This document shows positions 7,913 to 52,300 of a stretch of 64,000 nt of DNA, piece by piece. Each line of letters opens with the position of its first letter. The stretch's first letter is position 1. The stretch is from positions 19,374,582 through 19,438,581 of the forward strand of contig JAUZTB010000069.1 of assembly GCA_034780895.1 (NCBI GenBank), given 5' to 3'. This DNA is from Rhynchobatus australiae (taxonomy: Eukaryota). The notes under the pieces were generated by a model. The model was not told the origin of the DNA and did not search any database. It was given only the letters and a program-made list of their open reading frames with translations. The position numbers were made by a program, and so were the translations under genes.

Positions 7913-48421
<40,509 letters not shown>

Positions 48422-49099
48422 GGACACATTCACTTGTGTTCAAGAGTCTGTAAGAAGATCAAATATTTTAAAATGCTGAAATAAGACATAACACTACCTT
48501 CATTATATAACTCGCTACACATTCCTCTACATCCCATAACACATGGTGGAAACATACAAAACAGGAATTAGTTACAATGACAGAAGTCTCAGCATTCCTT
48601 AATACAAGAAGGTCATTTTGCTACTGAAGTGATTTGTCAGATTGAAGCAAGATTGCCAGAAACAGGATGATTGGTGTTCAATGTGCCACATGACCCAAAA
48701 GGAGTTGACCGTCATATCCAGCCTACAAAAAGGACAAGTGAATTGTGTGCAAGCACAGAAACTGGTGTGGGTTCTGTCAAACATTTTGCATTAATATAAA
48801 TGGGACATCCTATGCCAGGATATTCAATATAAAAGGCACATCTTGTGCACAGCACACTAAAGTTGACTCAAGTTAAAAAATAAGGATGTCACCCAAAATT
48901 ATAGTTGCTCCTGAAATATGTTGATATTCATGAAATTATCAACAGCAAACCTAAAGAGAGGGAGAGATTAATAAAGCAGGCATCAAGCCACAGCTCCAGA
49001 CAGTAAACAGATGCCAGATAGCATAAGTGTACAGCAGAGTGTGAAGAGAGCAAGCAATATACTAAAGGGCAGGGATCAGGGAATCAAAGGCTAGTTTGT

Positions 49100-49360: not shown

Positions 49361-52300
49361 ACGTCCCCTCCAACAATTTGCCATTCCCGCTGTACTACCC
49401 ATCTGACAATGTGCCAGTCCCACAATACTGCTTCACAATATTTATCCCTTTGATGACCATTAAATAGAACTGGTGATTATCTCGCTGGTGTTTGTGGGAC
49501 TTACCCATATGTTAACTCATTGTGATACTTTAGACATCACAGCAGGGACTACATTTCAAAAGTACTAAATGTAGTACTCATGATGTACCAGTGTTCTCTA
49601 GAGATTGGCTCTAAAGAACTCTGGTAGATCATGAGTTCTGTCGTTATTTATCTATGTAGCTATCCAGTTGATTTCAGCAAGCCACGCTACTGCGGCACTT
49701 ATTGTCATGCTGAATGCTCTCACCACCCCCAAAAATTGTGTTCTTTTGATCAGTGAGGAAGCTGTGACTGAGTGGCGCCATTAAAGAGTGAAAAGCAGAC
49801 TCAGATCCCACAGCGGATGCAATATAGTCAGGTCAGACTTCACATCCAAGGATACTGCACATTTATGCCAGACATCCACCAAACAAGTAGGAAAAAAAAG
49901 CATACATTTCAATATGCAGTCAACCACACCAGAGAATGCATCACAGTTATTAATGAACATCTGCCCTATTCACTGATTTAATGCAAGTGAAAGTTAGTGT
50001 TGGTCAATACCAACACCAAACATTTCTAGAGCAGGTTAGAGAGCAAAATTCCCTTCATGCTGAAGTTGGAAACCTGACCAAAGAAAAGATGAAAAGAGTG
50101 CACAGGTCAGACTACGACTGGAACAAGAATACCAGTGAACCTACCTGGTATGGACCTTTGGTTAGATCAATTTCAATGAAGGGTCCACAGCTGAATTTCT
50201 CCACAGATGTTGTCTGACCCAAGTTTCTGTAACCACAGCAAAAGGTTTTAATTACTTCTCCTTACCATGACCTCCTCTACATGACCCACCCGTGCCTAGC
50301 ACCAGGCCATCCGTGGAACTTCATGCCAAATTCCTGCCTGGCCTATGTCAGCAGCTTCGGGGCCATGTAAACCCTATTCCTCAGTGCTTCCCTGTTTTTC
50401 TCACACAAACCATTTTTATTCTCTCAAGATATTCTCCCACTCTCACTACAATTTCCTGCATTCCCTTCTATAACCCATTTCATTTACTTACACAAAAACA
50501 AAATACTGTGGATGCTGATAAAAATAGATGTTGGGAGGTTAAGCAGTATCTGTTGAGACAGAAACCGACTGAATGCTTCAGGTCAAAGAAGAAATATTAA
50601 ATTGGTTTCTCTCTCCACAAATGGCCTATGACTTGCCAAATATTTCCTGCATCACACTTTCCTTTTATCAGTTGTGTATGATCATTGTGTTGCTATTCAG
50701 CTTTTCGGTTTGATTACCTTGACTGCAATACTGCTGATTATTCAACCAGTTCAATAACTGACTAATGTTACACTCACTCCAACAAACAACATGTTGTATT
50801 ATTTCATCAGTATAAAAACAAAGCTCACATGAATGTTAGTCCCTTCTTTCCATACCAGGCATAAAAACTTGAACTCACGAAATTATATTTGCAGATTTTG
50901 ATCTTGTAGCTCGGCAGTGAGATCCTCGACTTGGGAGTCAGAAATCATTAGTTCAATACACTATTGGGGAGTGACGCATTTACAGGTACTATTCCTCAAA
51001 GGTTAAGCATCAGACGAAAAACTCTACCCAGGCACCATCAGAAAGAGAGAAGGAAATGTTCCCAGCTTTCTGTTCGAACTTTCTCATTAATTGCCCATTA
51101 ACTCACTTGTGGGATTTTGCAGGGTAGAAGATGGCTGTTGCATTTACTAAGAAAAAGCAAAAATTATTGAAATTAATTTATGAAGGGGAATCGGAACGCC
51201 AATTCACTTTTTTTTAATATGAAGCAAGGGTTCGGGAATGAGAGCTTCACTGAAGGAACTGGACATCCCATCCAGAAGCCTGGCTGTACAAGAAATAAAG
51301 TAGGAGGGGATTTTTAACGTTACACTGTTGCCTGTAACCTGACTGGCCTGTGTCAAACAGGCAAGGAATTCCATTTCATGAAGCCTGGGCCAGATTACTC
51401 AATGGAACTTTTCGAACTATTTTTGAGGTACTCCACAGAACAATTCATCTGAAGAGATTATAGTCACCTCCAGCAGAGAGGCCAAGAATATCAGATTACA
51501 TAGCTCCAGACAGGCTCCAAAACCGCCCACGCTACCAGGCATCAGCACAGAAACAAGAGAGAAATTGTTGACATAAATTTGGCAGGACTGGCAACTCCAG
51601 GACCACTGAGAACTGTAGGGGGTTGTTTGGAGGGGGTGCTGAGGATTTCCAAGGCATTCAACTGTGAACGAACATTGCACCGCACCAACACGCAGAAAGC
51701 AGCCTCAGGATTTAAACAGAAAATCCCCATCCAATCCTAATCCTTCTTGGGGCAGAGAGACAAGAGAAGCTTTGTAAAATCAGTCTTCTGTAGCAATGCA
51801 CGGCTGCAGCTGACAGGTGACAAAAAGATTAAAGTGCTGAAGGCAGCCAACAATTCAGGTTCTGATGAGTTTGATAGATTCTCAACAAGCCTACAGGGAC
51901 CTCCTCAAACCCTGGTTTATTCAAGTAATCATGGAACCCAGCTGGGACTGTTTTGCAAGGGAGCAGTCATGGAAACTGCAGAACTAATATTTAATAATTG
52001 ACACAAGCTTTCGCGATTAGACTAACTGTTAATAAGCATCAGATCATCAGGGAGAGCAGGATACTGAGGGGCACCAGAATTGCAAGCAATGTGAGACAAC
52101 ATAAAAAAAAGGCAAATATGCTCACCTTAAATATGTCACTTAGTGGCATTGAGACTGCATTTATTTCAAGAAGGTCATGTGCAGATACTGAATATAACCC
52201 TGCTCAGAGAACTTTCTGTACAAAACACTGAGTACAATCCCAACTTTTACATCCTTATTTTCATCTCTCTGTTCCGAAGTCACCCAATGATATAGGATAC

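What the first reader, a model, noticed from the sequence alone, without database searches (positions are those of the whole stretch)
48392..48450. In-frame TGA at the start of exon 2 cuts off the canonical RXRA N-terminus
Seen: after the acceptor the exon reads (G)AC TCT TGA ACA CAA GTG AAT = D-S-*-T-Q-V-N, which aligns with human RXRA D-F-S-T-Q-V-N. The TGA replaces a Ser codon (one step from TCA), and the flanking residues still look formerly coding. The other 449 codons are intact with conserved motifs, which argues against a pseudogene. Downstream ATGs are at 48421 (weak context TCCATGA) and 48394 (GCAGCCATGA, matching the Met of human MAAPSLHP). Inference: the protein starts inside exon 2 with a shortened A/B domain, and any coding exon 1 would become a uORF ending 18 nt before the first ATG, a possible translational control. 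Alternatives are readthrough, a null allele or a base-call error.
Basis: partly seen in the sequence, partly recalled or inferred. Interest (0 to 1): 0.7.

Follow-up and report, generated by a model that had tools for sequence, protein, structure and literature searches.

The report
Stop codon in ray RXRA leader
The stop codon near the front of this ray's retinoid X receptor alpha gene is real, but it likely lies in the untranslated leader: database models of this protein in sharks, rays and the elephant shark all include a form that starts a few codons later, so it is likely an ordinary, harmless change.

Summary
The TGA is real: 48442-48440 (minus strand), third codon of RXRA exon 2. A second contig of the same species and contigs of two other species show it, so it is not a base-call error. 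From ATG 48421 the frame is intact, 449 aa, 448 identical to Pristis RXRA.

It most likely lies in the 5' leader. All 21 cartilaginous-fish species with an exon-2-containing RXRA record have a form starting inside exon 2; 0 of 48 records carry the MDTKHFLPL-type exon. Spliced contigs of three other species join an 82-nt exon (window 50226-50145) to this acceptor; it has no ATG and two in-frame stops. Catshark cDNA has TCA here. The pre-ATG codons drift (44% identity, 4 species) while the same stretch of shark RXRG is 94% conserved and keeps an MDT-type first exon.

So cartilaginous fishes likely lost the coding first exon long ago and the TGA is later drift. The true first exon was not found, so a uORF role is unsupported but not excluded. 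Ordinary; interest 0.15.

The parts
50145..50226 (-). 82-nt non-coding exon upstream of exon 2 (exon U); AG before, GT after, no ATG, single copy in the genome
   Evidence: Loose ends of spliced contigs X17, X18, X20 match its 3' end; boundaries and frames; X17 has 83 nt before exon 2, fitting 82 + 1 shared base (5' boundary inferred from this and the AG); one genome hit
50167..50175 (-). Two TGA codons of exon U in the RXRA frame (50175-50173, 50169-50167)
48448..48449 (-). Splice acceptor AG of exon 2
   Evidence: Sequence; used in 3 of 3 spliced contigs that reach it (fourth run X14 gave nothing)
48182..48447 (-). RXRA exon 2 (266 nt): 26 nt of likely leader, then 80 codons of the A/B region (Pfam PF11825)
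48440..48442 (-). In-frame TGA, homologous to a TCA (Ser) codon in catshark and to Ser in Narcine, Heterodontus and Mustelus records
48418..48429 (-). Out-of-frame three-codon ORF (Met-Cys-Pro-stop) whose stop overlaps ATG 48421; weak context
   Evidence: use not tested
48419..48421 (-). First in-frame ATG (M-N-C start of most shark and ray records); weak context; aligns with the Met of shark RXRG S-M-N-S-P
48392..48394 (-). Second in-frame ATG (M-N-A-P-S-L-H-P); good context; the start of the Callorhinchus and Pristiophorus records and of 17 of 114 non-chondrichthyan records
27089..27239 (-). RXRA exon 3
25554..25733 (-). RXRA exon 4 (an alternative donor 21 nt further gives the 456-aa form of relatives)
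16829..16998 (-). RXRA exon 5
14640..14769 (-). RXRA exon 6
11952..12084 (-). RXRA exon 7
11509..11600 (-). RXRA exon 8
9144..9249 (-). RXRA exon 9
7913..8060 (-). Coding part of the last RXRA exon, ending in TAA

Best explanation
The TGA is real and shared with two related species, and it likely sits in the 5' untranslated leader of an intact RXRA gene, as likely neutral drift. Inferred history: the ancestral RXR had a nine-codon first exon (M-D-T-x-x-F/Y-L-x-L) spliced in phase 1 onto this exon, still seen in bony RXRA and in shark RXRG. Cartilaginous-fish RXRA likely stopped using it, so the first nine codons of exon 2 became leader and drifted; in one ray lineage TCA became TGA. Ribosomes would scan the non-coding exons, pass the TGA without effect, and start at ATG 48421 (weak context, 449 aa) or, by leaky scanning, at ATG 48394 (good context, 440 aa).
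For: Shown: (1) TGA present in an organism-A contig with 0 differences over 48230-48520 and no difference at 48440-48442 in contigs of organisms B and C. (2) Frame from 48421 intact, 448 of 449 residues identical to Pristis P0131. (3) 21 of 21 chondrichthyan species with an exon-2-containing RXRA record have one starting inside exon 2: 16 at M-N-C, 3 four codons earlier, 2 at the second Met (my tally). 0 of 48 chondrichthyan RXRA records have an MDT-type exon, against 10 of 51 chondrichthyan RXRG records and 22 of 114 non-chondrichthyan records. (4) Spliced contigs of organisms F, G, H join exon U to this acceptor; in this genome exon U has no ATG and two in-frame TGAs. (5) Pre-ATG codons 2-9: 0.44 mean pairwise identity in 4 species (6 pairs), against 0.81 for Met1-9 and 0.92 for the rest of exon 2; the homologous RXRG stretch 0.94 (7 sequences, 21 pairs). 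(6) Catshark cDNA reads TCA at this codon (PMC10492535 supplement file 1). Inferred: which ATG is used, neutrality of the TGA, and the date of the loss.
Against: The first exon of this genome was not found: 7,972 of 84,700 bases upstream of exon U are N, and a CpG-rich edge abuts a 667-N gap. No RNA run of this species was listed. In F, G, H the letters at the TGA are not shown, because differences near the end of a piece are not listed. The catshark cDNA joins a different upstream exon that is open in frame with an ATG 19 codons before exon 2 (read by hand), and Narcine, Heterodontus, Mustelus and an old Callorhinchus model have N-terminal extensions; these five extensions do not resemble one another or the MDT exon, but they show that upstream in-frame ATGs can exist. 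Starts in database records are predictions. Cluster listings show at most 15 members, so some isoforms were not seen. The identity contrast rests on 4 RXRA species.
Confidence: 0.85

Rival explanations
1. The TGA ends a translated upstream ORF that begins in an unseen first exon and dampens or tunes RXRA translation by re-initiation 18 nt downstream; the tiny ORF at 48429 may add to the choice between the two ATGs.
For: Catshark cDNA has an in-frame ATG in another upstream exon, so a homologous exon here would make a uORF. The first exon may lie in an assembly gap. X17's contig stops at the start of exon U, which suggests several upstream partners (inference).
Against: The only upstream exon found is ATG-free and has in-frame stops. 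The TGA is absent in catshark, Narcine, Heterodontus and Mustelus, which still have short-start records. No MDT-like exon above background in 444 kb (best score 20 of 27 on the gene strand, 21 on the control strand).
Confidence: 0.1
2. Base-call or assembly error, or a private null allele.
For: Only one of the 4 raw reads laid from X22 covers the codon, and its letters are not listed singly. X2 or X1 could be related to the assembly's source.
Against: Same letters in contigs of three species labels from different studies; the coding frame is intact and 99.8% identical to Pristis.
Confidence: 0.02
3. Stop-codon readthrough or selenocysteine insertion keeps a long N-terminus.
For: TGA is the leakiest stop (general knowledge); the flanking codons still resemble the old coding sequence.
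Against: No upstream coding exon to read through from; flanking codons are poorly conserved among sharks and rays; the codon replaced is Ser, not Cys.
Confidence: 0.02

Closest known systems
RefSeq/UniRef RXRA models of sharks, rays and Callorhinchus (e.g. XP_051892890.1 Pristis, XP_059850235.1 Hypanus, V9KUT8 Callorhinchus)
   Same: Same protein with the same start inside exon 2; several transcript accessions per identical protein, as expected for varied non-coding first exons.
   Different: The records say nothing on the TGA; four other species have a sense codon there.
Short mammalian and bird RXRA isoforms starting at M-A-A/T-P-S-L-H-P; mouse testis RXRalpha2/alpha3 (Brocard 1996)
   Same: Start at the Met homologous to ATG 48394: 17 of 114 non-chondrichthyan records begin there. 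Reviews note testis isoforms (PMC9015987, passages) and alternative starts in AF-1 (PMC13262680, passages).
   Different: In mammals this is a minor form beside the MDT-type RXRalpha1; in cartilaginous fishes it seems to be the only conserved form. The 28-residue deletion of RXRalpha2 is recalled; the paper was not held.
Shark and coelacanth RXRG
   Same: Homologous exon start (D/N/H-S-A/T-I-Q-V-N-S-T-S-M) and a short isoform from the internal Met (Callorhinchus P0201).
   Different: RXRG keeps coding first exons, including the MDT type, and conserves the exon-2 start.

Membership tests
Intact RXRA (NR2B1) gene | Uninterrupted AF-1, DNA-binding and ligand-binding frame with canonical splice sites | tested here: met
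   449 codons, one terminal stop, AG/GT at all internal junctions; PF11825 on exon 2
Intact RXRA (NR2B1) gene | Closer to RXRA than to RXRG; BRD3-WDR5-RXRA neighbourhood | tested here: met
   96-99.8% to elasmobranch RXRA, 87-88% to turtle and coelacanth RXRA, 78% to ray RXRG P0158; BRD3- and WDR5-like exons upstream, named from recalled motifs
Pseudogene or null allele | Disabling change inside the used reading frame | tested here: not met
   The stop precedes the start predicted in all relatives; frame intact
Regulatory uORF ending at this TGA | An upstream in-frame ATG on the same mRNA | tested here: inconclusive
   None on exon U plus exon 2; first exon not found, gaps upstream
Regulatory uORF ending at this TGA | Conservation of the stop across species | tested here: inconclusive
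   Shared by organisms A, B, C; absent in catshark, Narcine, Heterodontus, Mustelus; not shown for F, G, H
Regulatory uORF ending at this TGA | Ribosome occupancy and an effect on main-ORF output | not testable with these tools
   Needs ribosome profiling or a reporter
Programmed readthrough or selenoprotein | Conserved coding frame on both sides of the stop | tested here: not met
   Upstream exon has in-frame stops; flanks 0.44 conserved
Programmed readthrough or selenoprotein | SECIS or readthrough element | not tested
   Not searched, as no upstream frame was found

The most novel reading that the evidence does not exclude
All cartilaginous fishes dropped the ancient coding first exon of RXRA, and with it the Ser22-Pro phosphorylation site (Cys-Asp here), making the short form their only RXRA; the freed leader then became a translational control, in which this TGA ends a uORF from an unseen first exon and the overlapping Met-Cys-Pro ORF sets the ratio of the 449- and 440-residue proteins.
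Probability: 0.1. Interest if true: 0.4.

Novelty: already known. Interest (0 to 1): 0.15.

Why it matters
As a single codon it matters little: it warns that a stop aligned to a human N-terminus is not a loss of function when the clade starts the protein later. The clade-level pattern is a modest evolutionary note: shark, ray and chimaera RXRA seem to lack the first 19-28 residues of bony RXRA, including the Ser22-Pro site that is phosphorylated in mouse (PMC7153655, search listing and abstract start only; its title calls the site dispensable for brown adipogenesis), while shark RXRG keeps them. I found no paper describing this in searches (listings, plus passages of PMC10492535); Fonseca et al. 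2020 on chondrichthyan nuclear receptors was seen only as a citation.

Tried and rejected
Search for a canonical first exon: tblastn of upstream peptides and a motif scan on 264 kb, a degenerate nine-codon-plus-donor scan on 444 kb, and a scan with the Narcine extension and one short catshark motif on 48-215 kb gave nothing above the opposite-strand control. Absence is not shown, because of gaps. No RNA holder of this species was listed: no evidence either way. Run X14 laid no record. Raw reads of X22 were too thin (4 reads, one over the codon). The spliced exon 2/3 ends in X3 and X4 were first read as RNA; the X3 flank matches a genomic fragment on C70, so they are likely DNA copies and were not used as expression evidence. 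A 5-kb gap with GC-rich edges was rejected as a promoter candidate: both edges are tandem repeats. The count of bony exon-2 starts (87 of 114) selects on F and V-N by its pattern and was not used as a conservation measure. Pfam found nothing on the two neighbour-gene fragments tried. Brocard 1996 not held. The search of earlier findings gave nothing relevant. No structure or complex prediction was run: the question concerns a leader and a disordered N-terminus.

Full report
Observation. On the minus strand the acceptor AG lies at 48449-48448 and the exon runs 48447-48182. In the RXR frame it reads D-S-stop-T-Q-V-N-V-S-M, with TGA at 48442-48440 and in-frame ATGs at 48421 and 48394. The stop ends 18 nt before ATG 48421, which has T at -3; ATG 48394 has G at -3. 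Joining the nine exons from ATG 48421 gives 449 codons and one terminal stop, with AG/GT at every internal junction. The product is identical to the Pristis RXRA record at 448 of 449 residues, 96-99% identical to other elasmobranch RXRA, 87-88% to turtle and coelacanth RXRA and 78% to a ray RXRG. The gene is an intact RXRA of a ray.

Is the TGA an error? Four runs were laid on 48080-48620. A contig of organism A (X2, a different sample and study code from the best holder X1) matches 48230-48520 with no difference. Contigs of organisms B and C cover the codon more than 170 nt from their ends, differ at 5 and 12 places in those pieces, and show no difference at 48440-48442. Raw reads of X22 were thin: 4 reads, all at least 99% alike, one over the codon. 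The TGA is therefore shared by three species labels.

What is spliced in front? No RNA run of this species was listed. Of four presumed RNA runs of other species, three gave spliced contigs and one gave nothing. All three end their match at the 48447 acceptor and continue with nearly the same 30 letters, which map to window 50154. That defines an 82-nt exon, 50226-50145, with AG before and GT after; the X17 contig has 83 nt before exon 2, which fits its length. In this genome the exon has no ATG and two TGAs in the RXRA frame, and it is single copy. On this transcript form nothing reads into the exon-2 TGA. The letters of F, G and H at the TGA itself are not shown, because differences near the end of a piece are not listed. 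X18 and X20 extend further upstream (191 and 131 nt), but those letters are not printed.

What do relatives do? Protein searches and cluster listings gave 48 chondrichthyan RXRA records. By my tally 21 species have a record that includes exon 2, and all 21 have one that starts inside it: 16 at the Met of 48421, three (Heterodontus, Carcharodon, Cetorhinus) four codons earlier, and two (Pristiophorus, Callorhinchus) at the Met of 48394. None of the 48 has the M-D-T-x-x-F/Y-L-x-L first exon; 22 of the 114 non-chondrichthyan records do. Four species also have extended models (Narcine, Heterodontus, Mustelus, an old Callorhinchus model); the extensions do not resemble each other. The catshark cDNA in supplement file 1 of PMC10492535 reads TCA at the codon in question and joins a different upstream exon, open in frame, with an ATG 19 codons before exon 2 (read by hand). 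These are predicted starts, and listings are capped at 15 members per cluster.

Which state is ancestral? The genome's second hit for exon 2 (C73) is RXRG by its homologues. Ten of 51 chondrichthyan RXRG records carry an MDT-type exon, and coelacanth RXRG and RXRA share 7 of its 9 residues. The RXRG exon-2 start has 0.94 mean pairwise identity in 7 sequences; the same stretch of RXRA has 0.44 in the 4 species where it can be read from records, against 0.81 for the next nine residues and 0.92 for the rest of the exon. The coding first exon thus predates the RXRA/RXRG split, and chondrichthyan RXRA likely lost its use. Anchored on the second Met, bony L-N-S-P aligns with M-N-C-D here, so the Ser22-Pro site is gone and the Met of 48421 matches the Met of RXRG S-M-N-S-P (my alignment of records).

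Limits. The upstream interval is bounded by BRD3-, WDR5- and transporter-like exons (named from recalled motifs). No MDT-like exon stood above the control strand in 444 kb, and neither the Narcine extension nor a short catshark motif was found. But 7,972 of 84,700 bases upstream of exon U are N, and a CpG-rich edge abuts a 667-N gap about 30 kb upstream of exon 2, a plausible place for a missing first exon. A uORF from that exon cannot be excluded.

Mechanism. Shown: a real, shared TGA; an intact frame; use of this acceptor with a non-coding exon in three relatives; short-start records across the clade; drift of the pre-ATG codons. Inferred: scanning ribosomes pass the TGA and start at 48421 or, by leaky scanning, at 48394; the TGA is neutral drift that followed the loss of the coding first exon. 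I put this at 0.85, a uORF role at 0.10, error or null allele at 0.02 and readthrough at 0.02.

Known context. Short RXRA forms from the second Met occur in 17 of the 114 non-chondrichthyan records. Reviews mention testis isoforms RXRalpha2 and alpha3 (PMC9015987, passages) and alternative starts in the AF-1 region, with AF-1 the less important activation function in mouse development (PMC13262680, passages). Brocard 1996 was seen only as a reference entry (PMC4490549) and was not held. PMC11521896 passages added nothing specific. Searches showed no paper on the chondrichthyan RXRA N-terminus; most subscription papers are not searched. Earlier findings of this scan held nothing on it.

Verdict. 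Observation confirmed, interpretation partly supported. The short protein is already in the database models of the closest relatives; the stop codon is most likely leader drift. Interest 0.15.

Noticed in passing
L035:974-1078 (G000:C82) and L036:1048-1116 (G000:C70): Two short spliced RXRA fragments elsewhere in the genome (45 nt exon 2 + 62 nt exon 3; 46 + 23 nt), both starting at exon-2 base 221-222, with unrelated flanks. The C70 flank is also in an organism-B contig. Likely independent retro-inserted pieces; the shared start is unexplained.
   Followed up: partly
window 48429-48418 (-): Three-codon out-of-frame ORF whose stop overlaps the first in-frame ATG; could favour the second ATG. 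Conservation not determined.
   Followed up: partly
window 25553-25533 (-): Alternative donor 21 nt into intron 4 would add seven residues after the DNA-binding domain; matches the 456- versus 449-aa records of many sharks and rays.
   Followed up: partly
L004:4730-4900 (G000:C69 about 19453300-19454128): CpG-rich edge next to a 667-N gap, about 30 kb upstream of exon 2: candidate site of the missing first exon and promoter.
   Followed up: partly
L010-L012 (G000:C69 about 19513000-19530500, minus strand): A membrane-transporter-like gene (my reading: MFS type; one Pfam scan of a fragment found nothing) lies between WDR5-like exons and RXRA.
   Followed up: no
L002 (G000:C73:25446094-25446297): The RXRG-type exon 2 lies on contig C73 while the other two sets of RXR exons lie on C76 and C81: possibly a split or misjoined paralogue.
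   Followed up: no
proteins P0158-P0257: Shark and ray RXRG records show three distinct coding first exons (M-Y-G-H type, M-E/D-D-F-W type, M-D-T type), each recurring in several species.
   Followed up: no
proteins P0010, P0259, P0266-P0275: Several ray-finned fish RXRA records insert an extra Cys-rich segment between the M-E-T-K exon and exon 2.
   Followed up: no
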